A stretch of 64,000 nt of DNA from Candidatus Hydrogenedens sp. (lineage in GTDB: Bacteria; Hydrogenedentota; Hydrogenedentia; Hydrogenedentales; Hydrogenedentaceae). The notes below the pieces were generated by a model, which saw only the letters and a list, made by a program, of their open reading frames with translations, was not told where the DNA came from and searched no databases. Positions within the stretch are counted from its first letter, which is position 1. Each line of letters begins with the position of its first letter. The stretch spans positions 12,152 to 76,151 of the forward strand of contig JBMFRC010000014.1 in the NCBI GenBank assembly GCA_049968235.1, read 5' to 3'. Positions 51,917 through 64,000 of this stretch are shown piece after piece. A program made the position numbers and the translations under genes.

Positions 51917-52076
51917 ATAAAATGAATATTATTATATCCCATGTTTTAAGATAATCAGGATATAGAATATAAAAATAATAAATTGTAATTGGAAAAATTA
52001 AGATTAAAGAAGATAACTGAATGATATTTTATAAGTATTGTATTGGTGTTATTTTTAATGTTTAGTTTTATCAAAA

Positions 52077-53345
52077 TCAACGCACAATTAATGCTTCGCG
52101 TTCAGGTCCTACAGAAATATATTTAATTGGACATGACACACGTTTTTCTATTTCCAGAACATAATTCTGTGCATTTGTAGGTAAGTCTTCAAACCGACGC
52201 ACTTTGGTAATATCATCATTCCACCCCGGAAGTTCAATGTACACGGGTTCTGATTTTTCAAGTATAGGATTGATTGGAAAATTATCGAATGTCTTGTCTT
52301 CAAATTTGTAATGAGTGCAAATCTTTAATATTTTTCTACCTGTAAGACTATCTAATTTGGTTAAGGCTATTTCTGTAGCACCCTGTACTTTTACACCGTA
52401 TTTTGTTGCTACAGCATCAAAATGACCGATTGTACGAGGTCTACCCGTTGCTGCTCCATATTCCTTAGCAATTTCTCGTAACTGGTCTGCTTCTTTTTTT
52501 TCCATTAGTGTTACAAAAGGACCTTCTCCAACACAGGTTGAAAAAGCCTTGACAACCGCAATGACTCTATCCGGTGGGTAGCCAAAAAGTCCTCCACCGA
52601 TAGGGGCAAAAGCAGATAATGTGCAGGAGGAGGTTGTGTAAGGATAAATTCCGAAATATAGGTCCCTCAGTGTTCCTAACTGTGCTTCAAAAAGTATCTT
52701 TTTGCCTTCCTTGACTGCTTGTTCCAGAATCTCATTTGTATCTTTAATATAAGGTAGTAATGGTTGACTCCATTTTTGTGTCCATTCCCAGATTTCTTCA
52801 AAGGTAAAAGGATTTTCTTTCCCATATACTCCTCGGGCTATTTGTAACTTCCAGTCTACAATTTGTTTCAATCTCTTTTCCAGATATTCCGGATAGAAAA
52901 GGTCACCCATTAAAATGGCTTTTTTGATGGTTCGGTCCCCATAAACCGGGGCAATTCCTCTTCGTGTGGAGCCATAGGCGTTTTTACCCAATCGTTCTTC
53001 TTCCCATATATCTTCATAACGGTGATAAGGGAAGCAAATTACTGCTCGTTCTGAAATGTATATTTGAGGTTCTATACCTTTATCTTTAAAACCTTGTATT
53101 TCTTCTACAAGGCTTTTAAGGTCAATGACCATTCCGGGCCCTAATATATTGATTGTCTTTTTACTAAAAACGCCGGATGGAATAAGATGCAGTTTGAATT
53201 CGCCAAATTCATTAATAACTGTATGTCCTGCATTATTGCCCCCCTGATAACGGATAACAAAATCTGCATCCTGTGCAAAATAATCTACCATGCGACCTTT
53301 TCCTTCGTCGCCCCAATTGGCTCCCACAATAACTTCAATACTCAT
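52077..53345 (-). CDS. purA: Adenylosuccinate synthetase
   Basis: GANWGDEGKGRMVD P-loop, GGNNAGHT and full-length PurA similarity. Confidence 0.9.
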   Translation of the reverse strand: MSIEVIVGANWGDEGKGRMVDYFAQDADFVIRYQGGNNAGHTVINEFGEFKLHLIPSGVFSKKTINILGPGMVIDLKSLVEEIQGFKDKGIEPQIYISERAVICFPYHRYEDIWEEERLGKNAYGSTRRGIAPVYGDRTIKKAILMGDLFYPEYLEKRLKQIVDWKLQIARGVYGKENPFTFEEIWEWTQKWSQPLLPYIKDTNEILEQAVKEGKKILFEAQLGTLRDLYFGIYPYTTSSCTLSAFAPIGGGLFGYPPDRVIAVVKAFSTCVGEGPFVTLMEKKEADQLREIAKEYGAATGRPRTIGHFDAVATKYGVKVQGATEIALTKLDSLTGRKILKICTHYKFEDKTFDNFPINPILEKSEPVYIELPGWNDDITKVRRFEDLPTNAQNYVLEIEKRVSCPIKYISVGPEREALIVR

Positions 53346-53379
53346 TTACCATACCCTTTATATAAGTATTCAATTTTCA

Positions 53380-53411
53380 CAAAAAAACGGGTCGAAATCA
53401 AACTCGACCCG
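53380..53411 (-). terminator. Rho-independent terminator after rpsD (minus strand)
   Basis: CGGGTCGA-aatcaaac-TCGACCCG hairpin. On the minus strand it is followed by a T7 run. Confidence 0.75.
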
Positions 53412-53438
53412 TTCACCTTATTCAATTATACAAAAAAA

Positions 53439-54047
53439 CTATCTTGAGTAGAACCCGATGACTCCCGGAGTATCTTCAAGGAAGGGAAGATTTTCTTCTG
53501 CCGGGACAGAAACAACATGCCCTTCAAATGATTTTGTCTCGCGGGAAAGATGCGGAGGAATCTCCTGATATGGGTTTTCTGCTCCTTCCGCTATCATCGG
53601 AATAGTTCTGCTCTTCTCACGGACTGTAATTTTCATTCCCGGTTTAACTGTAAAGGATGGAATGTTTACTTTCTTACCATCTACCAGGAAATGACAATGA
53701 GTTACGAGTTGGCGTGCTGAAGAGATGGTTGGTGCGAAACCTAAACGGTAAACCACCGTATCAAGCCTGCATTCCAAAAGTCTTATCAAATTTACACCTG
53801 TATCACCCGTAATACGCTTGGCTTCCTGGAAGGTTTTCCACATTTGCCGTTCCATTAAACCGTAGTGCATACGAATTTTTTGTTTTGCTAACAATTGCCG
53901 GGCATAAACGGATAACTTTCCTTTCGGGTCTCTTCCATGTTGTCCCGGTCTGAATGGACGTTTTTTGGATGGGCATTTCGGGCTTCCCCATATACAGGAA
54001 CCCAAACGCCGACATAACTTGTGTTTTGGACCTAAGTATCTTGCCAT
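53439..54047 (-). CDS. rpsD: 30S ribosomal protein S4
   Basis: MARYLGPKHKLCRRLG...; S4 N-terminal and S4-domain blocks. Confidence 0.9.
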   Translation of the reverse strand: MARYLGPKHKLCRRLGSCIWGSPKCPSKKRPFRPGQHGRDPKGKLSVYARQLLAKQKIRMHYGLMERQMWKTFQEAKRITGDTGVNLIRLLECRLDTVVYRLGFAPTISSARQLVTHCHFLVDGKKVNIPSFTVKPGMKITVREKSRTIPMIAEGAENPYQEIPPHLSRETKSFEGHVVSVPAEENLPFLEDTPGVIGFYSR

Positions 54048-54218
54048 AGGTTGTGTTTGTTCCTTACTTTAATTTAATTTTTTCTTGCACAAAACGAGAC
54101 ACACGCTCTCTTTTACAGCCGCGGAAAAGATAGAGGTGTAAATAATAATCTTTTTTGAGGTGACATATTATATGATTTTTAAAAAAGTAAAAACAAATTA
54201 AAAGTGTTGTTGCTTTTC

Positions 54219-54665
54219 CTAATCTCTCTTATTAATACTGTTGAACTTGTTAGACTCGTCTGATTTTAATAATCGTTTGCCCTCTTCATTATAAGGAAGA
54301 ACCCCTAATTGTAGTATTTCTTGCCCTGAAGTATTCATCTTTAAGTGAGTAACTGTTTCCCAAAGGTATGCCAGAGGAAATCCTGCTTTCTTTAATTGTT
54401 CACACTTTAGTAAAAATTCATCATATCTCCTATCTGCATAATCTTTCCATAGAGGTTTTAACAGATGTGCTATATAAAAATTCTTTTTTGTTAGATTATC
54501 AAATGTTTTTTCTGCATTCGCTATTTCTCCATTTTCGGTTAATGCGAGTATTAGACCAATAGTTGCCCAACTTGTTTGTTCTTTGAAATATTCACACAAA
54601 GTTTGTATTTCACGATTTTTATTCATTGCGGTAAATTGAAATACAAGTTGGGGAATTGTATTCAA
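54219..54665 (-). CDS. Hypothetical protein (148 aa)
   Basis: Intact ORF with coding-like composition and no recognisable motifs. Lies downstream of the disrupted glycosyltransferase. Confidence 0.4.
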   Translation of the reverse strand: MNTIPQLVFQFTAMNKNREIQTLCEYFKEQTSWATIGLILALTENGEIANAEKTFDNLTKKNFYIAHLLKPLWKDYADRRYDEFLLKCEQLKKAGFPLAYLWETVTHLKMNTSGQEILQLGVLPYNEEGKRLLKSDESNKFNSINKRD

Positions 54666-54708
54666 ACCGGCTGTTCCATCCGGAAAAACTAACCAATTAA
54701 GTAATTCT

Positions 54709-56228
54709 TCATCTATATGTTTCGTCTCTCCCTAATTTTTCTAAAATATTCCTCATATTACTTTTTCTAATTTGTTTTTCTTCCTCCCAGTTATACTCTG
54801 CATTACAATAGTAAATAGAGTCAAAAGAAGTTGTTATACTGTTTTCTTTTTTAGTTTCAGGCTGTATTTTGTAGCAGGCAATTCCCTCAAAGGCTGGGAA
54901 AATTTTTTCATGGAAACCAATACCTCTTTTTTTTAATTCCTCTCTGAGGATGCAGGGGATTTTATCATTCCATTGCATACTATAAACCAGCCAGATAGTA
55001 GAAGATGGGTGTTGGTTCTGCAGGAAAGGAATTCCATCCATTGCCGATTTTATTGAAGTAGTATATAAGATAGGTGTGTTATCTGAATCAGGAAATACAT
55101 ACTCCAATGCCAATGCTTCCTCAAACCTACCTGTAATAATGATGTCCTCTTTTCCGTATGAATTCTGTATATATTTTGCACAGGAGTTCCAATCTGAATA
55201 AGGGGAACAACTTCGATAAAGAACATAATGATGAATGAAGAAAAGAATAGCAACGATGGTTAGAAAATATTGAAGTGGTTTACTTGTAATTGAATTTATT
55301 AGAACGAACAAAAGAGCAATTTTGCATATCCATGATAAATAAAAATACCGTGCCATCAGGATATTTGTCCCTGATATAGTTTGGACGAGTGCAAAAAAGA
55401 TAGGTATTATAATCCCAAAATACAAAAGATAAAAGGTTATATCCGTTAGTAATGATTTATTTTTCAAGATACATATTATTTTTTTTATAATAGATAGAAT
55501 AAAAGAAAAGAGAGAAGAATATTCCCCGTGTATATAATTACTAATGGAGCAACCCCGAGTAAGGAATTTAACCACATGGGTATCGGGTTATGGACGAAAA
55601 ATAAGGGTTGAACATAAATCGCCCACGAATTTATCGAGGAAATTTCAAAATCCAGTAAACCCAAAACGGTAAATACCAATTGTTTAATTCCTTTCTCCGG
55701 AACAAAATCAATATTATTTGTGTGGATGACAAAAACAAGATAAAAAATAACCCCACCTATTATTAAGAAATTTATCGTGAGAAAAGCAATGGTTCGTTTT
55801 TCTAACTTCTTATCAAATAATAAAAACAGACATTCTGCGAATGGTATCTAGAAAAAGATGTAATGAGTGAAAATAAGTGCAACAGAACAGGAAGTTAAAA
55901 AAGCCGTTTTCGTGTCAACGAGTTTTGAGATAGTTAGATAAATGAAAAGACAACTTAATAAACAACATAATACAGAAAAATATCGAAATTTTTCTTGTAG
56001 TATATGCAGATATTTTGTATTTATGTATAGTATTAGAGGATAAACAGGTGCTACTTCTGGACCTACACTCCACTGAACCGAAAGAAATTCCTCAATAGAA
56101 GAAGCATGGGTAAATGATACTCCACCCAGCAATTCATCACTCCAAAATGAAGGTCTCTGGGATAATAATAGTATTGCGACACATGATATAAAAAATAAAA
56201 TAAAGATAAGATAATATTTTTTTCTCAT
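54709..56228 (-). pseudogene. Disrupted GT-C family (ArnT/PMT-like) membrane glycosyltransferase: in-frame TAG plus a frameshift
   Basis: The three table ORFs 56228..55848, 55679..55485 and 55575..54709 form one ~505-aa polytopic protein. Its N-terminus (SQRPSFWSDELLGG) resembles the DE-motif first loop of GT-C transferases. Fragments 1 and 2 are in the same frame, separated only by TAG at 55848-55850. Fragments 2 and 3 overlap by 91 nt in different frames around an A8 run (55471-55479). Confidence 0.5.
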
Positions 56229-56405
56229 AGCCCATTAAAACTATAATGAATATCTGTTTTCTCATAATATAACATTTTTAGCAATAAGGATTGATTTTAT
56301 AAATTATGGGTATTGTAATGACTGTATTCTTTCTTATTGTTTTTTTGTTATGCTATATAAATAGTCTATGTTACATAATAAAAAGTTCTATATAGAAAGG
56401 AAAAA

Positions 56406-57161
56406 ATGATGAGAAAAAGTGTTTTGAGAAGTAGTTTAATTAGTACTACACTATTGTTTGTTTTTCTGTGTATGTTTGCAACTATTGCAGATTCACAGGT
56501 TCGTGTTGCTATTATTACAGGTGGACACGGTTATGATAAAGAGCCGTTTGAAGCGATGTGGGCAAGCATAAAGGATATTAAGCCTGAATATTTTGATTAT
56601 GCAGGAGGAAAATGTGTCTTTTTTGATAATGATAAATATAAAGATTTTGATACAATTGTTCTTTATAATTTTCACCACAAAATATCAAAGAAACAGCAGA
56701 AAAATTTCTTAGACATGTTAAATAGCGGGAAAAAAATTATTGTTATGCATCACGCTCTTTCTGCTTTTCCCGACTGGAATGAGTTTTCAAAAATTATTGG
56801 AGCAAAATATTTTTTGGAAGATATGGAATGGGAAGGGAAAAAATACGAAAGGTCAAAATACAAACATGATATAAAAATTCCGGTTCATGTTGTGGATAAG
56901 AACCATCCTATAACGCAAGGGGTAGAAGACTTTGAAGAGATAGATGAAGTTTATAGCCAATTCTATATCTCGCCGGATGTACATGTTCTACTTACCACCA
57001 ATCATCCTGACAGTGCCTCTTTTTTAGCCTGGGTAAATAAATACAGTAATTCGGAAGTATTCTTTATGCAATTGGGGCATGGTCCCCAGATATTTGCAAA
57101 TGAACAATTTCGTAAACTTATTAGCAATGCAATTAAATGGTCAGTAGAAAAAAATAAATAA
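56406..57161 (+). CDS. ThuA-like (trehalose-utilisation / class I glutamine-amidotransferase-like) secreted protein
   Basis: Signal peptide, RVAIITGGHGYD...IIVMHHA pattern of the ThuA family, about 250 aa. Confidence 0.55.
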   Translation: MMRKSVLRSSLISTTLLFVFLCMFATIADSQVRVAIITGGHGYDKEPFEAMWASIKDIKPEYFDYAGGKCVFFDNDKYKDFDTIVLYNFHHKISKKQQKNFLDMLNSGKKIIVMHHALSAFPDWNEFSKIIGAKYFLEDMEWEGKKYERSKYKHDIKIPVHVVDKNHPITQGVEDFEEIDEVYSQFYISPDVHVLLTTNHPDSASFLAWVNKYSNSEVFFMQLGHGPQIFANEQFRKLISNAIKWSVEKNK

Positions 57162-57178
57162 CAGAAAGGAAGAATAAA

Positions 57179-58711
57179 ATGAAAAGAACAGTTATAGGAC
57201 TTACCTTAATCATTTTATGCGATAGCGTGGCGTGTTTTGCTGAAAACTCCCCATTTTTTAATGAATTTTTTGCTATGGATACTGCAACACGGGATGCGGA
57301 ACATTCAACGCCTGATTTACAGGTATCCTTTGCTAAAGAATTAGGTTTTACAGGAATCAGTTGGACAGGCTTTGACCAGATGGCAGAACTTAAAAATGCT
57401 TTGCAGTCGCATGGATTAAAACTATATGCGGTTTATTTTTGGGGAACAATAGAAAAGGAAGGTTTTCAAATCCAACCGGGTCTGGCAGATATTCTTGAAA
57501 TAATGAAAGGAAATGAGTATTTCCTCTGGTTAACTATAAATAGCCAGACATGGAAATCTAATGAAGCGGAATCATATCAACAAGCACTTGCTCTTATTCG
57601 TAATGTAGCAGACCAGGCATTGCCTTATGGTGTGAAAATAGCCCTATATCCTCATGCGGGGTGCTGGCTTGATAAAACGGAACAAGCCTATCAATTAGCA
57701 CAGGATTCCGGTAAGCCGAATGTAGGTATATCGTTTAATCTCTGTCACTGGTTAAAGGTAGATGGTCCCGACACAAATCTGGACTTGCTAATCCGTAAAG
57801 TAAAGCCTAAATTGTTCGTAGTTACTTTAAATGGTGCAGAACCGCCCGGTGATTGGGATAAATTAATCCAATCGATGGATAAAGGTACTTACGACTTAAA
57901 ACCTTTATTAAAAACATTGAAATCTGTCGGCTATACGGGTCCGGTAGGTTTACAGGGCTATGGTATCCAGGAACCTGTAAAAGAACATTTGCCACGTTCT
58001 ATGAAAGCTTGGAAAGAATTAATATCCTCTGTCTCTACCTATGAGCCTGTTCGTGTTTCTACAGACGATTTAAGTGCTTTCCGTGAACCAACGGGGACAT
58101 GGTATAGTGGAAGTGATGCGATGACAGACCCTCAAAATGAAGCATTACTTACATCATTGCCCGGGGTAGGTGTACTTATTAATGGGAAGGATGGTAAAAC
58201 AAATCATCTTATTACAAAAGAAGAATGGGGAGATATTGAATTACACATTGAGTTCATGGTTCCAAAGGGCTCTAATTCTGGTGTGTATTTTCAGGGAAGA
58301 TATGAAATTCAAGTGCTGGACAGTTGGGGTATTGCAGAGCCTAAACATAGTGATTGCGGAGGAATATATCAGCGTTGGCATGAAGAACCGGGTATTCCCG
58401 ATGACCAGCGAGGATATGAAGGCAGACCGCCGCGTATTAATGCATCCCGTCCGCCCGGAATATGGCAAAGTTTTGATGTGATTTTCAAGGCCCCTAAATT
58501 TGATGCTGAAGGTAAAAAGACTGCCAATGCCCAATTTGTTCGTGTTATTCATAATGGTATTGTTGTGCATGAAAATCAAGAATTATCCGGTCCAACACGG
58601 GCACCTTTATTTGATAATGAATCTGCAAAGGGACCATTGATGATGCAAGGAGACCATGGTCCTGTTGCGTATAGAAATATCTGGGTGCGACCCTTAACAG
58701 AACAAGAATAA
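57179..58711 (+). CDS. Secreted fusion: xylose-isomerase-like TIM-barrel (sugar phosphate isomerase/epimerase family) + DUF1080 (3-keto-disaccharide-hydrolase-like jelly-roll)
   Basis: N-terminal half with AP-endonuclease-2/xylose isomerase-like TIM-barrel features. C-terminal half with DUF1080 blocks (GDIELHIEFMVPKGSNSGVYFQGRYEIQVLDSWG...GPLMMQGDHGPVAYRNIWVRPL). Confidence 0.65.
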   Translation: MKRTVIGLTLIILCDSVACFAENSPFFNEFFAMDTATRDAEHSTPDLQVSFAKELGFTGISWTGFDQMAELKNALQSHGLKLYAVYFWGTIEKEGFQIQPGLADILEIMKGNEYFLWLTINSQTWKSNEAESYQQALALIRNVADQALPYGVKIALYPHAGCWLDKTEQAYQLAQDSGKPNVGISFNLCHWLKVDGPDTNLDLLIRKVKPKLFVVTLNGAEPPGDWDKLIQSMDKGTYDLKPLLKTLKSVGYTGPVGLQGYGIQEPVKEHLPRSMKAWKELISSVSTYEPVRVSTDDLSAFREPTGTWYSGSDAMTDPQNEALLTSLPGVGVLINGKDGKTNHLITKEEWGDIELHIEFMVPKGSNSGVYFQGRYEIQVLDSWGIAEPKHSDCGGIYQRWHEEPGIPDDQRGYEGRPPRINASRPPGIWQSFDVIFKAPKFDAEGKKTANAQFVRVIHNGIVVHENQELSGPTRAPLFDNESAKGPLMMQGDHGPVAYRNIWVRPLTEQE

Positions 58712-58734
58712 ATCTTATTATAAAGGGATTTCCT

Positions 58735-60066
58735 ATGGGGACCAGCAATAAAAAACATATAGTATCGAGACGCAGTTTCATAAAGACAACTGCTTTGCTT
58801 GCGTCTTTCCCTTTAATCCCTTCCTTTTCTCTCTTCGGCAAAGACCCCAAACCTTCTGAAAAAGTAGGCGTGGCTGTTATTGGCACCGGAGAACGAGGAA
58901 GGTATCTGATGAATGCTTTAATGTCAGTTAAAGAAGTTCAAATCAGGGCTTTATGTGATGTTCGGAAAGAAGACATAGATGAGGCTAATGATGATGTTCG
59001 TAAGAAATTCAAAGATGTAGCACTCTATAGAGACTTCCATGATGTCTTATCTCGTTCAGATATTGATGCGGTAGTTATTGCCACCAACGACCACTGGCAT
59101 GGAATTCTTACCGTTTTGTCTGCACAGGCAGGGAAAGATATGTATGTTGAAAAACCTCTATGTATTTCTATTCAGGACGATTTGAAAGTTACAGAAGCAG
59201 TAAAAAAGCATAACCGTATTTTCCAGTTCGGAACTCAACAGCGTTCTAATGACGATTTTCGATTTGCCTGCGAATTAGTTCGGAATGGCTATATTGGCGA
59301 ATTAAAGAAAATCCGTGTTGGTGTTCCCGGCGGTATTGTGGGTCCTGCATGTGGAGAAGAACCTGTTCCCGCTGTATCTGATTTTGATTATGAAATGTGG
59401 TTAGGACCTGCCCCTACGGTTCCATATTGCAAAGCACGAACCGTAAGACCCAACTGGTACCATATTGCAGATTATGCTATGGGCTTTATCGGAGGTTGGG
59501 GAATTCATCATGTAGATATTGCCCAATGGGGACACGGCAATGATGAAACATCAGGTCCGATTGAGTATGAAGGGAAAGGGGAATTCCCAAAAGAAGGTAT
59601 TTGCGATTGTGCGATGGCATGGGATGTCCAGATGAAATATGCTGACGGGATTGTCGTTCATTTCACCAATGAACAAACAGCAAAAAAAGAACCCAACCTG
59701 AACCCTACAGGAATAACCTTCGAAGGGACAGAAGGAACTGTGTATGTCAATCGTGAAACACTTCAGGCAAAACCTGAAAAATTACTGGATATTAAATTAA
59801 AGCCAACAGATGTACATCTATATCAGAGTAAACATCACTTAAAAAACTTTATTGAATGTGTACAAACACGAAAACAAACAATAGCCAATATTGATATTGC
59901 AGTCCGCTCCAACGCACTTTGTCTGCTAAGCGATATTGCAATTCGGACTCAAAAAATTATCCGTTGGGACCCCGAAAAAGAAGTCATAACAGACCCATCT
60001 CCCTTACCCGATAATGTCCAGCAACTCATCCACCGTCCCAAAAAGCAACCCTGGAATGTTATTTAA
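58735..60066 (+). CDS. Tat-secreted Gfo/Idh/MocA-family NAD(P)-dependent oxidoreductase
   Basis: Twin-arginine signal (SRRSFIKTTALLAS), VGVAVIGTGERGR Rossmann motif, and a Gfo/Idh/MocA C-terminal alpha/beta domain. Confidence 0.8.
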   Translation: MGTSNKKHIVSRRSFIKTTALLASFPLIPSFSLFGKDPKPSEKVGVAVIGTGERGRYLMNALMSVKEVQIRALCDVRKEDIDEANDDVRKKFKDVALYRDFHDVLSRSDIDAVVIATNDHWHGILTVLSAQAGKDMYVEKPLCISIQDDLKVTEAVKKHNRIFQFGTQQRSNDDFRFACELVRNGYIGELKKIRVGVPGGIVGPACGEEPVPAVSDFDYEMWLGPAPTVPYCKARTVRPNWYHIADYAMGFIGGWGIHHVDIAQWGHGNDETSGPIEYEGKGEFPKEGICDCAMAWDVQMKYADGIVVHFTNEQTAKKEPNLNPTGITFEGTEGTVYVNRETLQAKPEKLLDIKLKPTDVHLYQSKHHLKNFIECVQTRKQTIANIDIAVRSNALCLLSDIAIRTQKIIRWDPEKEVITDPSPLPDNVQQLIHRPKKQPWNVI

Positions 60067-60081
60067 AGGAAAGCAAGGATT

Positions 60082-60468
60082 GTGGAAGATAAAGTTGTTA
60101 AAATTGAGTGGGAACGGCTTGTTTCGGAGGAGGAGACCTGCCCGAGGTGTCGTATGACAGAGGAAGAATTGGAGAAGGCGATTTTGCAACTCCAATTGTT
60201 ACTTAATCCCAGGGGGATACAAGTTGTTCTCGAGAAGAAGGAAATAACACCGGAACAAATTCAGAAAAATCCACTTCAATCTAACAGGATTATCATCAAT
60301 GGGCGATTATTGGAAGAGTATATTAATGCAGAGACAGGAAAAAGCCCATGTTGTAGTGTTTGCGGTCCCAGAGATTGCAGAACGGTGATTATAAATGATA
60401 AAGAAATCCACGAATTTATACCCGTAGAACTTATAATCAAAGCAAGTTTAATATCTATTTCCTATTAA
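60082..60468 (+). CDS. Small Cys-rich protein (CPRC ... CCSVCGPRDC), possible metal/redox-binding protein
   Basis: 128-aa ORF with GTG start and AAGGA-like RBS; two Cys clusters 75 residues apart. Family not recognised with confidence. Confidence 0.4.
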   Translation: MEDKVVKIEWERLVSEEETCPRCRMTEEELEKAILQLQLLLNPRGIQVVLEKKEITPEQIQKNPLQSNRIIINGRLLEEYINAETGKSPCCSVCGPRDCRTVIINDKEIHEFIPVELIIKASLISISY

Positions 60469-60539
60469 TAGTTACACGAAAATATTATAAATTCTATGAA
60501 TGTGAAAATAATCGTTTGTAAATAAATAAGAGGTGGAAA

Positions 60540-61388
60540 TCAATTTTTTGTAGCGATTTTATTCTTTAGTTTTTCGGAGACTGTCTTCGTTATCATCTCC
60601 ACTTCTTCATTTTTATTTTGTTTCCTAAGAAACTGGACATAACTCAGTCCCAGAAGCCGAAGTCGTTCCTCCAGTTTGGGGTCATTTAAATCGGGCAAAG
60701 AAGAGATATTTTGCCATGCTTGTTGAAAATATTGTTCTGCGGATGCCATATCTCCCTGAGAGTTTTTTATCTGTGCCAATAACCATTGTGTTTCAGAAAG
60801 CACACCTTTATCTGCTGTATTCTGCTCTGTGATTTCTTCCAACTTTTTTGTTGCCCAATCTGTTAACCCTTTTGAAATAAGGGATTCGAGGTGGTCTTTT
60901 AATACCTCTAACTTTTTCTCTTGTGACGATAAATTGTCAATTAATTTGTTTAAAGGTTCTTCTACATTATTTTCTGGAGTTTGTTGATTATCAGGTATAG
61001 ATTGTAAAAGTCGTTCTAAATCCTTAGGTATATTTGCTTCAACTTGTTCCTTTTTCAATGTATTTTCTTCTGTTTCTCCATTTATTGAATTTGTTTCTTT
61101 TTCTCCCTCATCTTTCCCCAATTGTGCTGAATACACTTTATTTATTTGAGCGGTGTCTTTATTCTGTTCATCTGACTCTACATTTCCAAATGTGTCTTCC
61201 CTTTTTTTACTTACAAGCAGAAGGGGGTTATCCCTTGTTTTCCCCGGCGCTGCAGAAAACCTTTTGGATGTAGATTTGTCTTTTATAGGAGAATTTCCTG
61301 ATGATAAAAATGCTACTACCACCGAAAGAATAATTATAATTAGCGTTACGGAAACCACTATCAAAATTTCTTGTTTATTCATAAACAA
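60540..61388 (-). CDS. Hypothetical membrane-anchored coiled-coil protein
   Basis: N-terminal TM helix (ILIVVSVTLIIIILSVVVAFL), E/K/Q-rich coiled-coil-like remainder. No catalytic motifs. Confidence 0.4.
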   Translation of the reverse strand: MFMNKQEILIVVSVTLIIIILSVVVAFLSSGNSPIKDKSTSKRFSAAPGKTRDNPLLLVSKKREDTFGNVESDEQNKDTAQINKVYSAQLGKDEGEKETNSINGETEENTLKKEQVEANIPKDLERLLQSIPDNQQTPENNVEEPLNKLIDNLSSQEKKLEVLKDHLESLISKGLTDWATKKLEEITEQNTADKGVLSETQWLLAQIKNSQGDMASAEQYFQQAWQNISSLPDLNDPKLEERLRLLGLSYVQFLRKQNKNEEVEMITKTVSEKLKNKIATKN

Positions 61389-61428
61389 CCCGTTTTAAGT
61401 TTCTATTGTAATTATACCCCAAAAGGTA

Positions 61429-62391
61429 TTAAGAAACAGCAAATCCTAATTCTTTTAATGATTGTATTCCCTGTTTCACTTCTTCCACTGATTTCATTAA
61501 TGCAATTTTATTTTCATTAGAAAGGGGCAACTCGATAATCTTTTCCACACCTTGTGCTCCCAGTATGCAGGGCAATCCCACAAATACTCCTGAGATTCCA
61601 TACTCTCCTTGTGTATATACCGCACAGGGTAGTAATGCTTTTTCATCATGCAAAATAGCCTCAACCATTCTTGCGGAACTTGCTGCGGGTGCATAATAAG
61701 CACTACCTGTTTTTAAGAGTGATACGATTTCTGCACCACCTTTTCTTGTCCTTTCGATAATCTGTTCCAATCGTTCTTTGGGAATAAGTTCTTTTACAGA
61801 AACTCCGGCAACAGTGGTGTAATCCGGTATTGGCACCATTAAATCTCCATGAGAACCTAATACCATTGCATTTACTTGCTTTTGGCTCACATTGATTTCT
61901 TCAGCAATGAAGGAACACATCCTTGCATTATCCAGACAACCTGCCATCCCCATTATTTTTGATGGAGGGTGATTTAGCAAATGAAAAGCCAATTGTACCA
62001 TTATGTCCAGAGGGTTTGTTATAACAATTACAATCGCATTAGGTGCAAATCGCTGTATATAATCACAAATATTGGCGATAATTTTCCCGTTCTTTTCTAA
62101 TAAATCGAGACGGCTCATACCCGGTTTTCGCGGAAAGCCTGCAGAAATAACGATAATATCTGCATTCTTCATATCTGAAAAATCGTTACTACCTTGTATG
62201 GAAACACTATAACCACGAACAATACCTGCCTGCATCAAATCTAATGCTTTCCCTTGGGGTAATCCTTCCACAATGTCCAATAACAACACATCACCTAATT
62301 GCATCTCTGCACAGTACTGTGCAAAAGTTGCTCCAACATTTCCTGCTCCAATGGATACAATTTTAGGTCTGCTAAATTTACTTGTAACCAT
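61429..62391 (-). CDS. mdh: Malate dehydrogenase (LDH-like MDH family)
   Basis: IGAGNVG Rossmann motif, GFPRKPGMSRLDLL with Arg (not Gln) at the substrate-specificity position, and the catalytic His region. Confidence 0.85.
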   Translation of the reverse strand: MVTSKFSRPKIVSIGAGNVGATFAQYCAEMQLGDVLLLDIVEGLPQGKALDLMQAGIVRGYSVSIQGSNDFSDMKNADIIVISAGFPRKPGMSRLDLLEKNGKIIANICDYIQRFAPNAIVIVITNPLDIMVQLAFHLLNHPPSKIMGMAGCLDNARMCSFIAEEINVSQKQVNAMVLGSHGDLMVPIPDYTTVAGVSVKELIPKERLEQIIERTRKGGAEIVSLLKTGSAYYAPAASSARMVEAILHDEKALLPCAVYTQGEYGISGVFVGLPCILGAQGVEKIIELPLSNENKIALMKSVEEVKQGIQSLKELGFAVS

Positions 62392-62434
62392 AATTTACTC
62401 CTTATTTATTTCTGTATGAGGAATTAAAAATTAT

Positions 62435-63091
62435 TTATCGTTTTTCCGGAAAAAAATGTGCTTCTACCATAGCACATAAGGCATGCCATATTGGCTGATG
62501 TCCTTCCTGAATTACTTTGGTGCTATTTCCGGGTGTCTTAATGCAGATATGACTGTGTTGAGCTATAAGACCGCCCGACGGACCGGTCAATCCGATGACA
62601 ATCCCATTATTTGCTCTTGCCACACTAATAGCATATAAACAGTTTTTGGCATTACCTGATGTTGATATAGCAAGCAAAACATCCCCCGGTCTAATTAATA
62701 CACTTAACTCCTGTGCAAAAGCAATATCTCGCAATGGGCAATCATTTTCAATGGCTGTTTTTAATGCACTGTTCATCCCTAAGGGAATAGCCCGTAATCC
62801 CGCTTCAAGATATTTTCCAATCTCTTCACCGGCAAATTCATTTGATAACTTTTCAAATAATAATTTGCCAATAGGTCGCTTTCGTTCAAAACTCTTAACC
62901 AATTCCCCCGCAATATGGAGAGCATCTGCGTAAGAGCCACCATTCCCACAGGTGAATAAAGTTCCACCCTGAGAAAAGCAATGAACCAGAATTTCATGTG
63001 TCCTCAAAATATCATCTGCACAAGTTTTAAGGTCGGGTCGGCGAGTTAATAAATCATCAAAAATTTCCCGTTCAAGTATAGATAAATTCAT
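62435..63091 (-). CDS. gmhA: SIS-domain phosphoheptose isomerase (GmhA/DiaA-like)
   Basis: TCGNGGSYADALH, ISTSGN and a C-terminal His/Glu region typical of GmhA. Confidence 0.7.
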   Translation of the reverse strand: MNLSILEREIFDDLLTRRPDLKTCADDILRTHEILVHCFSQGGTLFTCGNGGSYADALHIAGELVKSFERKRPIGKLLFEKLSNEFAGEEIGKYLEAGLRAIPLGMNSALKTAIENDCPLRDIAFAQELSVLIRPGDVLLAISTSGNAKNCLYAISVARANNGIVIGLTGPSGGLIAQHSHICIKTPGNSTKVIQEGHQPIWHALCAMVEAHFFPEKR

Positions 63092-63235
63092 ATAAAAAAT
63101 CCTTATATTTTTTACGAATTTTAAAAACGAGATAATTATAGCAATTCAGTAAATAAAAACGAGAAATATATAAAGTTTTGACTCTTCTGAAATTTCTTAT
63201 TGAATTGGTAGAAGTTTTGATAATAAGGGATGAAG

Positions 63236-63265
63236 TTGACAAAAAGAAAAAACATTTGATACAAT
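63236..63265 (+). promoter_or_regulatory. Sigma-70-type promoter of the tRNA-tuf operon
   Basis: TTGACA-N18-TACAAT (TTGACA at 63236-63241, TACAAT at 63260-63265), about 30 bp upstream of the first tRNA. Confidence 0.6.
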
Positions 63266-63294
63266 TATTCTTCCCTGAAGAACAGAAGTAGTTC

Positions 63295-63370
63295 GCTGGC
63301 GTAGCTCAGCAGGTAGAGCAGCTGACTTGTAATCAGCAGGTCGGGGGTTCGATTCCCTTCGCCAGCTCCA
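63295..63370 (+). tRNA. tRNA-Thr (anticodon UGU)
   Basis: Cloverleaf read by hand: acceptor GCTGGCG/CGCCAGC, anticodon stem GCTGA/TCAGC with loop CTTGTAA, T-loop TTCGATT, encoded CCA. Confidence 0.9.
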
Positions 63371-63393
63371 CGAAATTGAATATATAATTTTGT

Positions 63394-63479
63394 GGTGGGC
63401 TGCCCGAGTGGTTAAAGGGGACGGGCTGTAAACCCGTTGGCTAGCGCCTACGTTGGTTCGAATCCAGCGCCCACCACCA
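63394..63479 (+). tRNA. tRNA-Tyr (anticodon GUA), class II with long variable arm
   Basis: Acceptor GGTGGGC/GCCCACC, anticodon loop CTGTAAA, long variable arm, TTCGAAT T-loop, encoded CCA. Closely resembles E. coli tRNA-Tyr. Confidence 0.9.
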
Positions 63480-63522
63480 ATTTGAGATAAAACGCACAAA
63501 AGCGTTTATAATATACGCATTT

Positions 63523-63599
63523 GCGGGAGTAGCTCAGTTGGTAGAGCGTCAGCCTTCCAAGCTGAGGGTCACGGGTTCGAATCCCGCCTCCCGCTCCAG
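63523..63599 (+). tRNA. tRNA-Gly (anticodon UCC)
   Basis: Acceptor GCGGGAG/CTCCCGC, anticodon stem TCAGC/GCTGA with loop CTTCCAA, TTCGAAT T-loop, CCA. Confidence 0.9.
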
Positions 63600-63604
63600 A
63601 TTTT

Positions 63605-63680
<76 letters not shown>

Positions 63681-63757
63681 TTGGTTATTAAAGTTTATGT
63701 AAATAAGTAAAAAAAGTTTAACAAAAAAACAAAACCTAAAAAAGAAGGAATACAGCG

Positions 63758-64000
63758 ATGTCGAAGCAGAAATTTGAGCGGAAGAAGCCGCATGTGAACA
63801 TTGGAACGATAGGACATGTGGACCATGGAAAGACGACATTGACGAGTGCGATAACGAAGATATTAGCGAGACAGGGTTTGGCGGAGGTGATGGAATTTGA
63901 CCAGATAGATAAGGCGCCGGAAGAGAAAGAGCGGGGAATAACGATAAATATAGCGCATGTGGAATATGAGACGCCGAATCGGCACTATGCGCATGTGGAC
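63758..64000 (+). CDS. tuf: Elongation factor Tu (5' part; continues past window end)
   Basis: [32 protein letters not shown]...[42 protein letters not shown]. Confidence 0.9.

What the first reader, a model, noticed from the sequence alone, without database searches (positions are those of the whole stretch)
56406..60066. ThuA-like + (sugar isomerase TIM-barrel::DUF1080 fusion) + Tat-exported Gfo/Idh/MocA oxidoreductase: a periplasmic oxidative (3-keto) glycoside cleavage module
All three products carry export signals (two Sec, one twin-arginine). Gfo/Idh/MocA enzymes oxidise glycosides at C3 (ThuB, glycoside 3-dehydrogenases). Xylose-isomerase-like TIM-barrel proteins act as 3-keto-glycoside lyases or isomerases. 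DUF1080 has been characterised as 3-keto-disaccharide hydrolase. ThuA partners ThuB in trehalose 3-oxidation. Here the TIM-barrel and DUF1080 units are fused into one 510-aa polypeptide, an arrangement that puts two proposed downstream activities on one protein. The substrate is unknown.
Basis: partly seen in the sequence, partly recalled or inferred. Interest (0 to 1): 0.5.

Follow-up and report, generated by a model that had tools for sequence, protein, structure and literature searches.

The report
Exported three-gene oxidative glycoside-cleavage operon
A Candidatus Hydrogenedens genome carries a small operon of three exported enzymes that most likely cuts sugar linkages by oxidising, eliminating and re-hydrating rather than by ordinary hydrolysis; it is an uncharacterised but widespread fused variant of a pathway described in gut bacteria in 2024.

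Summary
Three tightly spaced same-strand ORFs lie exactly at 56406-60066. They are a ThuA-like protein, a 510-aa xylose-isomerase-like TIM barrel::DUF1080 fusion, and a twin-arginine Gfo/Idh/MocA oxidoreductase. All three carry export signals.

- The Gfo protein's best solved relative is AL3, the glycoside 3-dehydrogenase of the Bacteroides/Alistipes oxidation-elimination-hydration pathway.
- The DUF1080 half keeps the active-site motifs of BT2157, which is now known to be a lyase/hydratase, not a hydrolase.
- The fusion is not unique. It is a large family found in both domain orders, and 25 of 28 sampled loci have an adjacent Tat-Gfo gene.
- ThuA adjacency holds only in the Hydrogenedens clade. 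Elsewhere, ThuA::DUF1080 fusions and ThuA-Gfo pairs exist.
- The TIM half is a confident TIM barrel, but the canonical Glu/Asp/His/Glu metal ligands are replaced family-wide. It is no closer to known 3-keto-glycoside lyases than to sugar epimerases.
- The downstream DUF2703 ORF is a lineage-specific insertion.
- No transporter or regulator is adjacent, and the substrate is unknown.

Verdict: a new variant of a known kind, of moderate interest.

The parts
56229..56405 (+). AT-rich 177-nt intergenic region upstream of the operon. It presumably holds the promoter and the ribosome-binding site (GAAAGGAAAAAATG).
   Evidence: Sequence read. The consensus promoter scan found no more sites than shuffled sequence, so promoter function is inferred only from position.
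56406..57161 (+). ThuA-like protein, 251 aa, with a Sec-type signal peptide (about residues 1-28, likely cleavage after ATIA). It has a GATase-1-like fold without a Cys nucleophile. Its clade has invariant His41, His115, His116, His167, Asp180, Glu181, Tyr183 and His225.
57179..57241 (+). Sec-type signal peptide of the fusion protein (about residues 1-21, MKRTVIGLTLIILCDSVACFA).
   Evidence: Signal heuristic. 113 of 120 family members have a comparable hydrophobic N-terminus.
57245..58054 (+). Xylose-isomerase-like TIM-barrel half of the fusion (residues 23-292). It belongs to a non-canonical subfamily with motifs AMDT, ALYPH, FNLCH, VTxNGA[DE] and GLQxYGI. The canonical Glu/Asp/His/Glu metal-ligand positions read gap/Asn187/Thr216/Gln259. 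Tyr86, Tyr157, His159, Asn181 and His190 are invariant.
58058..58708 (+). DUF1080 (PF06439) beta-jelly-roll half of the fusion (residues 294-510). Invariant motifs are GSNSG (Asn366), YEIQ (Glu376, Gln378), CGGIY (Tyr397) and QGDHG (Gln490, His493).
   Evidence: Pfam 9.4e-33. PDB matches 4qhz at 4e-25 and 8v31 (BT2157) at 4e-5. Invariant columns in A1 and A3.
58735..60066 (+). Tat-exported Gfo/Idh/MocA oxidoreductase, 443 aa. It has a twin-arginine motif S11-RRSFIK-17, a Rossmann GxGxxG, Asp75, the EKP Lys140, His258 and Asp261.
   Evidence: Pfam PF01408 and PF19051. NCBIfam best match BT_2158_fam, 1.6e-39. PDB best match 8tdf/AL3, 7.5e-23 for the single sequence and 3.9e-37 for the family profile. 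Conserved residues.
60082..60468 (+). DUF2703 ORF, 128 aa, with Cys motifs and no signal peptide. It is co-oriented and lies 15 nt after the Gfo gene. It is probably co-transcribed but is not a conserved part of the module.
   Evidence: Pfam PF10865, 1.7e-33. Window 60068-60564 is replaced by about 65 nt in the collinear relative L001. The ORF is absent from the gene lists of L001 and L002.

Best explanation
This is a compact operon for non-hydrolytic ('non-Koshland') cleavage of glycosides outside the cytoplasm, built on the logic shown for Bacteroides BT2156-2159 and Alistipes AL1-4.

Step 1 (inferred from homology). The Gfo/Idh/MocA enzyme is folded with tightly bound NAD and exported by the Tat pathway. 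It oxidises the 3-hydroxyl of a terminal sugar to a 3-keto-glycoside.

Step 2 (inferred). The keto group acidifies H-2. The fusion protein then eliminates the aglycone across C1-C2 to give a 2-hydroxy-3-keto-glycal, and adds water to it to give the free 3-keto sugar. The DUF1080 half is the best candidate for both activities. The TIM half either supplies the lyase for the other anomer, as AL1/BT1 does, or acts as a second hydratase, isomerase or binding site with a non-canonical active site.

Step 3 (inferred). The NADH left on the Gfo enzyme reduces the 3-keto sugar, so the overall reaction is a redox-neutral hydrolysis.

The ThuA-like protein is a clade-specific accessory of unknown chemistry with a His-rich conserved site.

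What the tools established: gene order, domain identities, folds, export signals, conserved residues, and the conserved fusion+Tat-Gfo pairing. Not shown: any activity, the substrate, cofactor binding, or the cellular location.
For: Domains and folds. Export signals.

Gfo protein:
- Its best solved relative is 8tdf, at 7.5e-23 and 3.9e-37 with the family profile. I verified that 8tdf is AL3: chain index +29 reproduces Gln161, Arg192, Trp195, Asp248 and His252 of the preprint.
- The best NCBIfam match is BT_2158_fam, 'glycoside 3-dehydrogenase', aligned over residues 11-414.
- The EKP lysine and the equivalent of His252 (His258) are invariant.

DUF1080 half: the motifs GSNSG, E-x-Q, GGIY and Q-x(2)-H are invariant. 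They align to Glu164/Gln166 and Gln273/His275 of BT2157 (8v31, chain index +19), directly and through 3s5q and 3imm.

Functional coupling:
- The TIM and DUF1080 domains are fused in both orders, with at least 2-6 order switches on neighbour-joining trees.
- 25 of 28 fusion loci have an adjacent same-strand Gfo gene, against 6 of 52 loci with standalone DUF1080 of the same subfamily (Fisher p = 4.7e-12).
- Almost all full-length partner Gfo proteins carry RRxFLK.
- ThuA::DUF1080 and ThuA-HEAT-DUF1080 fusions exist, the latter flanked by Tat-Gfo genes.
- ThuA relatives at 47% and 38% identity lie directly upstream of Gfo genes of the PF19051 type.

The trio is syntenic in L001/L002 (84% identity), L003 (70%) and L005 (77%).

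Reference biochemistry: Nasseri et al. and Liu et al. 2021, PMC8121099.
Against: - No component reaches equivalog level. Gfo scores 135.8 bits against a 750-bit cut-off.
- AL3's Arg192/Trp195 loop is a gap in the window protein, and Asp248 is Gly254 in the window clade.
- The DUF1080 half is closer to the uncharacterised 4qhz than to BT2157. Equivalents of BT2157 Glu103 and Lys245 could not be placed.
- ThuA has no counterpart in the characterised BT/AL clusters.
- The operon sits among housekeeping genes with no transporter, regulator or glycoside hydrolase nearby. Nothing points to a substrate.
- A subclade of fusions (L004, P0011) has no adjacent Gfo gene and sits next to GH38 and GH95 genes instead.
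Confidence: 0.6

Rival explanations
1. Same chemistry at the start, but a net oxidative pathway rather than a redox-neutral one. The Tat-Gfo enzyme, helped by ThuA as in rhizobial ThuAB, hands its electrons to an external acceptor such as a cytochrome, an Fe-S protein or a quinone. 3-Keto sugars or their breakdown products then leave the pathway instead of being reduced back.
For: - ThuA accompanies Gfo here and in L087 and L088. In L088 a 391-aa Fer4 (Fe-S) protein sits between ThuA and two Gfo genes.
- The ThuA clade has a conserved His-rich site that could bind a metal.
- Nasseri et al. note that re-oxidation in vivo might occur through cytochromes.
- Liu et al. describe ThuAB as a cytochrome-c-dependent dehydrogenase system.
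Against: - No cytochrome, Fe-S or quinone-linked gene lies in or next to the window operon.
- Most fusion+Gfo pairs lack ThuA altogether, so the core pair must work without it.
- No biochemical role for ThuA is documented in the papers searched.
Confidence: 0.15
2. The module does not cleave glycosides. It oxidises and isomerises free cyclitols or monosaccharides, in the manner of inositol catabolism: a Gfo protein like IolG plus a TIM barrel like IolI or IolE.
For: - The N-terminal domain of Gfo matches IolG TIGR04380 at 2.2e-23 and myo-inositol dehydrogenase 3cea.
Against: - The IolG and IolE matches are far below the family cut-offs (82.6 against 355 bits; 15.6 against 290 bits) and cover only the generic Rossmann or barrel parts.
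- The metal ligands that IolI and IolE need are absent.
- All three proteins are exported, whereas inositol catabolism is cytoplasmic (established knowledge).
- This reading gives no role to the obligate DUF1080 partner, whose characterised members act on 3-keto-glycosides.
Confidence: 0.1
3. The Gfo enzyme alone is a GH109- or GH4-like NAD-dependent glycosidase that does oxidation, elimination, hydration and reduction in one active site. The fusion protein is then mainly a carbohydrate-binding or scaffolding partner, made of a TIM pseudo-enzyme and a lectin- or CBM66-like DUF1080.
For: - GH109 enzymes are Tat-exported Gfo/Idh/MocA proteins, and they match the family profile (2ixa at 5.7e-17; 6t2b at 6e-6 for the single sequence).
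- The TIM half has lost the canonical catalytic metal site.
- The DUF1080 and CBM66 models overlap, according to PMC5673643.
Against: - AL3 is a much better match than GH109.
- The DUF1080 half keeps the invariant polar residues that line the catalytic channel of BT2157.
- The TIM half keeps invariant His, Tyr and Asn residues at strand ends across 1,168 relatives, which suggests a working site.
Confidence: 0.07
4. The DUF1080 half is a GH16-like endo-glycanase, as reported for Thermogutta THTE_1561 (endo-xanthanase/lichenase). The Gfo and TIM parts process the released sugars.
For: - DUF1080 has a GH16-like beta-jelly-roll fold.
- NCBI names several family members 'family 16 glycoside hydrolase'.
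- THTE_1561 is cited as an endo-xanthanase/lichenase, and DUF1080 genes are up-regulated on xanthan in Thermogutta.
Against: - The GH16 catalytic motif E-[ILV]-D-[IVAF]-[VILMF](0,1)-E is not present. The corresponding stretch reads D-I-E-L-H-I-E-F. Its first Glu varies (E, R, K, A or Q in alignment A1) and the Asp position is an invariant His356.
- Nasseri et al. likewise found no GH16 motif in BT2157.
Confidence: 0.03

Closest known systems
Bacteroides thetaiotaomicron BT2156-BT2159 and Alistipes AL1-AL4 oxidation-elimination-hydration glycoside cleavage pathway (Liu et al. 2021, PMC8121099; Nasseri et al. 2024, bioRxiv 10.1101/2024.03.25.586180 / Nature 631:199)
   Same: - The same three protein classes, all exported: a Tat Gfo/Idh/MocA dehydrogenase, a xylose-isomerase-like TIM barrel and a DUF1080 protein.
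- AL3 is the best solved relative of the window Gfo protein.
- The E-x-Q, Tyr and Q..H motifs of the DUF1080 domain are retained.
   Different: - The TIM and DUF1080 parts are one polypeptide here.
- The TIM half is a different subfamily (9% identity to AL1) that lacks the metal ligands and the catalytic Glu position.
- There is only one Gfo gene, with no cytosolic BT2159/AL4 counterpart.
- There is no SusR/DUF6377 regulator.
- A ThuA-like gene is added.
- The host belongs to Hydrogenedentota, not gut Bacteroidota.
- All sequence similarities are far below equivalog level.
Rhizobial and Agrobacterium ThuAB (thuEFGKAB), forming 3-keto-disaccharides from trehalose, sucrose isomers and maltitol (Ampomah et al. 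2013, as cited in PMC8121099)
   Same: A ThuA-family protein is encoded together with a Gfo/Idh/MocA oxidoreductase. The proposed chemistry is C3 oxidation of a glycoside.
   Different: - There is no ThuEFGK ABC transporter.
- The proteins here carry export signals.
- A lyase/hydratase fusion is inserted between the two genes.
- Orthology to rhizobial ThuA and ThuB was not tested; only Pfam family membership was.
Agrobacterium tumefaciens GlycDH / AtOGE / AtHYD system (Kumpf et al. 2023, PMC10628242; PDB 8bvk, 8ro4)
   Different: - The oxidase there is an FAD GlycDH, not a Gfo protein.
- There is no DUF1080 and no fusion.
E. coli YcjS/YcjR/YcjQ (D-glucoside 3-dehydrogenase and 3-keto-D-glucoside 4-epimerase; PDB 6wn6)
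   Different: - The E. coli system is cytoplasmic.
- YcjR is a metal-dependent epimerase.
- There is no DUF1080 or ThuA.
- Identity to the window TIM half is only about 15-17%.
Caulobacter LacABC plus DUF1080 (CCNA_01705) lactose route through 3'-ketolactose (Price et al. 2022, PMC9007349)
   Same: An exported DUF1080 protein acts downstream of a periplasmic glycoside 3-dehydrogenase.
   Different: The dehydrogenase is the membrane-bound, flavin and cytochrome-linked LacABC, not a Gfo protein. There is no TIM fusion.
GH109 / GH4 NAD-dependent glycosidases
   Same: Transient C3 (or C3-like) oxidation and elimination chemistry. GH109 enzymes are Tat-exported Gfo/Idh/MocA proteins.
   Different: In those enzymes all steps occur in one active site. 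Similarity to the window Gfo protein is much weaker than AL3's (6e-6 against 7.5e-23).

Membership tests
Pfam PF06283 ThuA / ThuA-like fold | HMM score above the gathering threshold, and a GATase-1-like ThuA fold | tested here: met
   [not shown]
Rhizobial ThuAB trehalose/disaccharide 3-dehydrogenase system | thuA encoded with a Gfo/Idh/MocA thuB gene | tested here: met
   ThuA and Gfo are in one operon, separated by the fusion gene. They are directly adjacent in L087.
Rhizobial ThuAB trehalose/disaccharide 3-dehydrogenase system | Embedded in a thuEFGK ABC-transporter operon | tested here: not met
   No transporter genes flank the operon. The neighbours are a PMT_2-like gene, rpsD, purA, a TPR-like ORF and mdh.
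Rhizobial ThuAB trehalose/disaccharide 3-dehydrogenase system | Forms 3-keto-trehalose or other 3-keto-disaccharides | not testable with these tools
   This needs an enzyme assay.
Xylose-isomerase-like TIM barrel superfamily (PF01261) | HMM score above the gathering threshold, and an eight-stranded barrel fold | tested here: met
   [not shown]
Xylose-isomerase-like TIM barrel superfamily (PF01261) | Canonical Glu/Asp/His/Glu divalent-metal ligands at the strand ends | tested here: not met
   In HMMER alignments to IolI, MJ1311 and ketose 3-epimerases these positions are an insertion gap, Asn187, Thr216 and Gln259. The same holds across fused and standalone family members.
AL1/BT2156-type 3-keto-beta-glucoside 1,2-lyase | Detectable sequence relationship to AL1 or BT1 | tested here: not met
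   [not shown]
AL1/BT2156-type 3-keto-beta-glucoside 1,2-lyase | His/Asp/His Co2+ site plus a catalytic Glu | tested here: inconclusive
   The canonical Asp, His and Glu positions are Asn, Thr and Gln here. His159 and His190 are invariant and could form a different site. No direct residue alignment to AL1 was possible.
DUF1080 / PF06439, BT2157 (AL2)-type 3-keto-alpha-glucoside lyase and glycal hydratase | HMM score above the gathering threshold | tested here: met
   114.3 bits against a 26.8-bit cut-off.
DUF1080 / PF06439, BT2157 (AL2)-type 3-keto-alpha-glucoside lyase and glycal hydratase | The conserved channel residues listed by Nasseri et al.: Glu103, Asn134, Glu164, Gln166, Tyr190, Lys245, Gln273, His275 | tested here: inconclusive
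   Equivalents of Glu164/Gln166 (Glu376/Gln378), Tyr190 (Tyr397), Gln273/His275 (Gln490/His493, with a one-residue insertion) and the GSNSG Asn (Asn366) are invariant. Part of this mapping is transitive, through 3s5q and 3imm. Equivalents of Glu103 and Lys245 could not be placed.
GH16 glycoside hydrolases (the name NCBI gives some family members) | Catalytic motif E-[ILV]-D-[IVAF]-[VILMF](0,1)-E | tested here: not met
   The stretch reads DIELHIEF. The first Glu varies across the family and the Asp position is an invariant His356.
BT2158/AL3-type glycoside 3-dehydrogenase (NCBIfam NF058561) | Equivalog HMM score of at least 750 bits | tested here: not met
   135.8 bits, E 1.6e-39. It is still the best NCBIfam match and spans residues 11-414.
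BT2158/AL3-type glycoside 3-dehydrogenase (NCBIfam NF058561) | Twin-arginine signal, implying export with a bound cofactor | tested here: met
   SRRSFIK at residues 11-17. RR and F are invariant in the partner family. Cofactor retention itself cannot be tested with these tools.
BT2158/AL3-type glycoside 3-dehydrogenase (NCBIfam NF058561) | AL3 sugar-pocket residues Gln161, Arg192, Trp195, Asp248, His252 | tested here: inconclusive
   Gln161 corresponds to Gln168 and His252 to His258 (invariant). Asp248 corresponds to Gly254 in the window clade but is Asp in most partner Gfo proteins. The Arg192/Trp195 loop is a gap.

The most novel reading that the evidence does not exclude
ThuA, the non-canonical TIM barrel, DUF1080, HEAT-repeat and beta-propeller domains, together with Tat-exported PF19051-type Gfo dehydrogenases, form a combinatorial toolkit of exported non-Koshland glycoside-cleaving enzymes in Hydrogenedentota, Planctomycetota and Verrucomicrobiota. 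This would explain the long-noted expansions of these families in those phyla.

Within the toolkit, the TIM subfamily would use a new catalytic apparatus based on His and Tyr, either metal-independent or with a relocated metal site. ThuA would be a His-rich metallo-component with a defined chemical step: cofactor re-oxidation, or a lyase/hydratase activity of its own.
Probability: 0.25. Interest if true: 0.7.

Novelty: new variant of a known kind. Interest (0 to 1): 0.45.

Why it matters
The oxidation-elimination-hydration route to glycoside cleavage was established only in 2024, and only for gut Bacteroidota.

This locus, and the comparative data gathered around it, indicate that a fused and sequence-divergent version is widespread in environmental phyla. 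I found 200 cluster representatives of the TIM subfamily at E up to 1e-30, and 556 of 600 scanned genome hits for the DUF1080 motifs were confirmed relatives.

Members of this family are currently labelled inconsistently as 'DUF1080', 'family 16 glycoside hydrolase' or 'sugar phosphate isomerase/epimerase'.

The two-gene core, Tat-Gfo plus the fusion, is a minimal and experimentally tractable system. It could be used to test:
- whether broad-specificity, anomer-independent glycoside cleavage operates outside the gut;
- how a xylose-isomerase-like barrel works without its usual metal ligands;
- what ThuA does. The papers searched give no biochemical role for it, although ThuA and ThuB are cited together as forming 3-keto-disaccharides.

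It would also improve the annotation of carbohydrate turnover in Planctomycetota, Verrucomicrobiota and Hydrogenedentota.

Tried and rejected
- The promoter and terminator consensus scan of 55500-61500 gave fewer sites than shuffled sequence. It says nothing about the limits of the operon.
- NCBIfam gave no family for ThuA or DUF2703, and only a sub-threshold IolE match for the fusion.
- A PDB sequence search with ThuA found nothing at E up to 0.01. The later fold search found only structural-genomics ThuA-like entries with no function.
- Literature searches for ThuA biochemistry returned no mechanistic study. A PNAS 2024 paper assigns 'dehydrogenation' to a ThuA-domain protein from annotation alone.
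- No paper in the searchable library describes the TIM::DUF1080 fusion.
- A geometric check of the TIM active site was not possible, because model coordinates are not exposed to the sandbox.
- HMMER's pairwise alignment of the window to 8v31 placed BT2157's E-Y-Q on the window's GG-IYQ. I rejected that register in favour of YEIQ, because 3s5q and 3imm carry both motifs and align EIQIADD to YEIQVLD.
- DUF2703 was considered as a fourth module component and rejected. It is an insertion relative to L001 and has no signal peptide.
- A search for a dedicated transporter or regulator in the window found only an orphan periplasmic sugar-binding protein 33 kb away.
- The GH16 hydrolase reading was rejected because the catalytic motif is absent.

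Full report
OBSERVATION

The three ORFs exist exactly as stated:
- 56406-57161, 251 aa
- 57179-58711, 510 aa
- 58735-60066, 443 aa

All are on the + strand, separated by 17 and 23 nt. Pfam assigns the following, each well above its curated cut-off:
- ORF1: PF06283 ThuA, 4.4e-28.
- ORF2: PF01261 (residues 50-262, 4.9e-18) plus PF06439/DUF1080 (residues 331-504, 9.4e-33).
- ORF3: PF01408 plus PF19051.

It is DUF2703 (PF10865, 1.7e-33).

The window is collinear at about 76% nucleotide identity with a relative, L001, over 49303-63892. The exception is 60068-60564, which L001 replaces with about 65 nt. DUF2703 is therefore a lineage-specific insertion and not part of the conserved module. It also has no signal peptide.

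EXPORT SIGNALS

No dedicated predictor was available, so I used a heuristic.
- ThuA (MMRKSVLRSSLISTTLLFVFLCMFATIA|DSQ) and the fusion (MKRTVIGLTLIILCDSVACFA|EN) each have a basic n-region followed by a 10-residue window of mean hydropathy about 3.0.
- Gfo has S-R-R-S-F-I-K followed by a milder hydrophobic stretch (1.9), as is usual for Tat substrates.
- purA, rpsD, the SIS protein and DUF2703 lack these features.
- 113 of 120 fusion-family proteins have a comparable N-terminus.
- RR and F of the Tat motif are invariant in the partner Gfo family.

ORGANISM AND SURROUNDINGS

A database protein 100% identical to ThuA (a partial entry), and close relatives of it, are labelled Candidatus Hydrogenedens sp.. 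The fusion's relatives at 70% identity are labelled Hydrogenedentes.

The operon sits between a PMT_2-like glycosyltransferase gene, rpsD, purA and mfd on one side, and a TPR-like ORF, mdh, an SIS-domain gene and a tRNA cluster on the other. The rest of the window is housekeeping: proS, secDF, amt, a Mur ligase, ftsZ, argG, glnA and tgt.

No transporter, regulator or glycoside hydrolase is adjacent. The consensus promoter and terminator scan was uninformative.

THE FUSION IS A LARGE FAMILY, IN BOTH DOMAIN ORDERS

- All 120 best database hits to the 510-aa protein carry PF01261 plus PF06439 and are about 500-520 aa long.
- Alignment A1 shows two architectures: signal-TIM-DUF1080, as here, and signal-DUF1080-TIM. 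The TIM halves are clearly orthologous, sharing the motifs NPFFAMDT, ALYPH, FNLCH, VTINGAD and GLQGYGI.
- Among the 120, 28 are TIM-first and 92 are TIM-last.
- On unbootstrapped neighbour-joining trees of 149 fusions, the domain order changes at least 2 times (DUF1080 tree), 6 times (TIM tree) or 4 times (concatenated). The two orders are therefore interleaved, not a single split. This is indicative only.
- An exhaustive search with the TIM half alone found 1,168 cluster representatives at E up to 1e-3 and 200 at E up to 1e-30.
- Those hits include many standalone proteins of about 295 aa with signal-like N-termini, and multidomain proteins: TIM+DUF1080+HEAT, TIM+HEAT, TIM+beta-propeller and a triple TIM.

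GENE-NEIGHBOURHOOD TEST

A scan of species-representative genomes returned 80 loci. I called ORFs in them and classified the ORFs with HMMs built from the window proteins.

- The focal DUF1080 protein was TIM-first in 6 loci, TIM-last in 22, fused to ThuA in 2, and standalone or otherwise combined in 50.
- A same-strand Gfo/Idh/MocA gene lies within about 180 bp, or overlaps the liberal ORF call, in 6 of 6 TIM-first loci and 19 of 22 TIM-last loci. Two of the three exceptions are short contigs.
- The corresponding figure for the other loci is 6 of 52. Fisher's exact test gives p = 4.7e-12.
- The partner Gfo proteins almost always carry RRxFLK. TIM-last loci often have a second Gfo gene in tandem.

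The conserved functional unit is therefore Tat-Gfo plus the fusion, whatever the domain or gene order.

ThuA is adjacent only in the window's own clade: L001/L002 at 84% identity, L003 at 70% and L005 at 77%. However:
- Pfam confirms true ThuA::DUF1080 (L023, 478 aa) and ThuA-HEAT-DUF1080 (L019, 1370 aa, with a Tat-Gfo gene on each side) fusions that involve the same DUF1080 subfamily.
- ThuA relatives at 47% and 38% identity lie directly upstream of PF19051-type Gfo genes and HEAT-repeat proteins (L087, L088).
- Two more distant ThuA relatives do not.
- One fusion subclade (L004, P0011) has no adjacent Gfo gene and instead neighbours GH38 and GH95 genes.

RESIDUE-LEVEL AND STRUCTURAL EVIDENCE

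Gfo protein
- The best solved relatives are 8tdf and 8tdh, at 7.5e-23 for the single sequence and 3.9e-37 for the family profile.
- 8tdf is AL3. Adding 29 to the chain index reproduces the Gln161, Arg192, Trp195, Asp248 and His252 reported by Nasseri et al..
- Window equivalents: Gln168 for Gln161, and His258 (invariant) for His252. Asp248 is Gly254 in the window clade but Asp in most partner Gfo proteins. The Arg192/Trp195 loop is absent.
- The EKP lysine (Lys140) and Asp261 are invariant.
- The best NCBIfam match is BT_2158_fam, 'glycoside 3-dehydrogenase', over nearly the full length. The score is 135.8 bits against a 750-bit cut-off.

DUF1080 half
- The best solved relative is the uncharacterised 4qhz (4e-25). 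BT2157 (8v31; chain index +19 reproduces Glu164/Gln166 and Gln273/His275) matches at 4e-5.
- Using 3s5q and 3imm as bridges, the invariant window residues correspond as follows: Asn366 (GSNSG), Glu376/Gln378 (YEIQ), Tyr397 (GGIY) and Gln490/His493 (QGDHG) match BT2157's Asn134/135, Glu164/Gln166, Tyr190 and Gln273/His275.
- Glu103 and Lys245 could not be placed.
- The GH16 motif is absent.

TIM half
- The AlphaFold2 model is confident (pLDDT 94.9, pTM 0.92).
- Identity is never above 20%, and there is no sequence-level link to any characterised 3-keto-glycoside enzyme.
- In three independent HMMER alignments (IolI, MJ1311, ketose 3-epimerase), the canonical Glu/Asp/His/Glu ligands fall on a gap, Asn187, Thr216 and Gln259.
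- This pattern is shared by fused and standalone members. The universally invariant polar residues are Tyr86, Tyr157, His159, Asn181 and His190.
- The TIM half thus has a conserved but non-canonical site. Whether it is catalytic cannot be decided here.

ThuA
- The model (pLDDT 91.3) matches only structural-genomics ThuA-like proteins and then generic GATase-1 folds.
- The clade lacks a Cys nucleophile. It has invariant His41, His115, His116, His167, Asp180, Glu181, Tyr183 and His225.

MECHANISM

The best-supported reading transfers the Nasseri/Withers scheme.
1. The Tat-exported Gfo enzyme, carrying tightly bound NAD, oxidises C3-OH of a terminal glycosyl residue.
2. [quoted passage not shown] The DUF1080 half is the safest assignment for this.
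3. The reduced cofactor is recycled by reducing the 3-keto sugar.

All chemical steps are inferred. What is shown is the set of domains, folds, signals and conserved motifs, and the statistically strong coupling of the fusion with Tat-Gfo genes. I put the confidence at 0.6.

Rival readings, each treated in its own entry with evidence for and against:
- a net-oxidative version with an external electron acceptor and a role for ThuA (0.15);
- cyclitol or monosaccharide metabolism (0.10);
- a GH109-like Gfo enzyme that works alone, with a non-catalytic partner (0.07);
- a GH16-like glycanase (0.03).

COMPARISON WITH KNOWN SYSTEMS, AND NOVELTY

The module works like BT2156-2159/AL1-4, but it is not a member at equivalog level for any component.

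It differs in these respects:
- a lyase/hydratase fused into one polypeptide;
- a TIM subfamily without the usual metal ligands;
- a single Gfo gene;
- an added ThuA gene;
- a host from an environmental phylum.

[quoted passage not shown] I found no paper that describes this fused family.

I therefore rate it a new variant of a known kind. It is of moderate interest because it offers a minimal two- or three-protein system in which to test this chemistry outside the gut, and to address the function of ThuA and of the atypical TIM site.

LIMITS

- Signal peptides were judged only by a heuristic.
- ORF calls in the loci are liberal.
- The trees are unbootstrapped.
- MAG taxonomic labels were taken as given.

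Noticed in passing
window 54265-56220 (-): The PMT_2-like glycosyltransferase gene just upstream of the operon is intact (720 aa) in relative L001. In the window it is split into three frame segments (aa 6-291, 313-554 and 554-709, at 53-59% identity). That implies at least two frameshifts: either a pseudogene or assembly error.
   Followed up: partly
window 60068-60564 (+), ORF 60082-60468: A DUF2703 ORF with Cys motifs and no signal peptide sits 15 nt after the Gfo gene. Collinear relative L001 has about 65 nt in place of this roughly 500-nt stretch, so it is a lineage-specific insertion.
   Followed up: yes
alignment A1; loci L005-L084: The TIM::DUF1080 fusion family exists in both domain orders (TIM-first and TIM-last) with orthologous halves. 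On simple neighbour-joining trees the order switches at least 2-6 times, which suggests repeated permutation or re-fusion.
   Followed up: partly
L023:9206-10642, L019:6545-10657, P0146, P0155, P0163, P0150, P0148: Further fusion permutations of the same parts occur: ThuA::DUF1080, ThuA-HEAT-DUF1080, TIM-DUF1080-HEAT (about 1200 aa), TIM-HEAT, TIM with a PQQ-like beta-propeller, and a triple-TIM protein. HEAT-repeat proteins also follow ThuA-Gfo pairs in L087 and L088.
   Followed up: partly
L086:5566-6135 and L088:6825-8000: In L086 a DJ-1/PfpI protein occupies the ThuA position upstream of two Gfo genes and a fusion. By my recollection DJ-1/PfpI belongs to the same GATase-1-like superfamily as ThuA. 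In L088 a 391-aa Fe-S (Fer4) protein sits between ThuA and two Gfo genes, which hints at electron transfer.
   Followed up: no
window 56406-57161 (ThuA), alignment A6: The ThuA clade has no GATase Cys. It has an invariant cluster of His41, His115, His116, His167, Asp180, Glu181, Tyr183 and His225, which suggests a metal or acid-base site of unknown function.
   Followed up: partly
L004:5180-12010 and the P0011 context: One subclade of TIM-first fusions (about 50% identity to the window protein) has no adjacent Gfo gene. It sits next to a divergent GH38 alpha-mannosidase gene and, in L004, directly upstream of a GH95 gene whose start overlaps its stop. This is a possible clue to substrate (mannoside or fucoside).
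   Followed up: no
window 58735-60066 (Gfo), residue 254: The Asp of the AL3-type D-x3-H dyad is Gly in the window clade (GGWGIHHVD) but Asp in most Gfo partners of the fusion (DWGAHLLD). A third partner subgroup (L007-L010, L017) is only about 20% identical to the window protein.
   Followed up: partly
window 7960-10029 (+): A 689-aa ORF carries a C-type lectin domain (PF00059, 5e-10), which by my recollection is uncommon in bacteria.
   Followed up: no
window 22657-23622 (-): A periplasmic sugar-binding protein (Peripla_BP_4, 1e-67) has no adjacent ABC permease or ATPase genes. Its neighbours are a metallo-beta-lactamase-fold protein and an unassigned ORF.
   Followed up: partly
window 63295-63680 (+): A tRNA cluster (Thr(tgt), Tyr(gta), Gly(tcc), Thr(ggt)). 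The 100-aa ORF listed at 63197-63499 (-) is an artefact of translating across these tRNA genes.
   Followed up: yes
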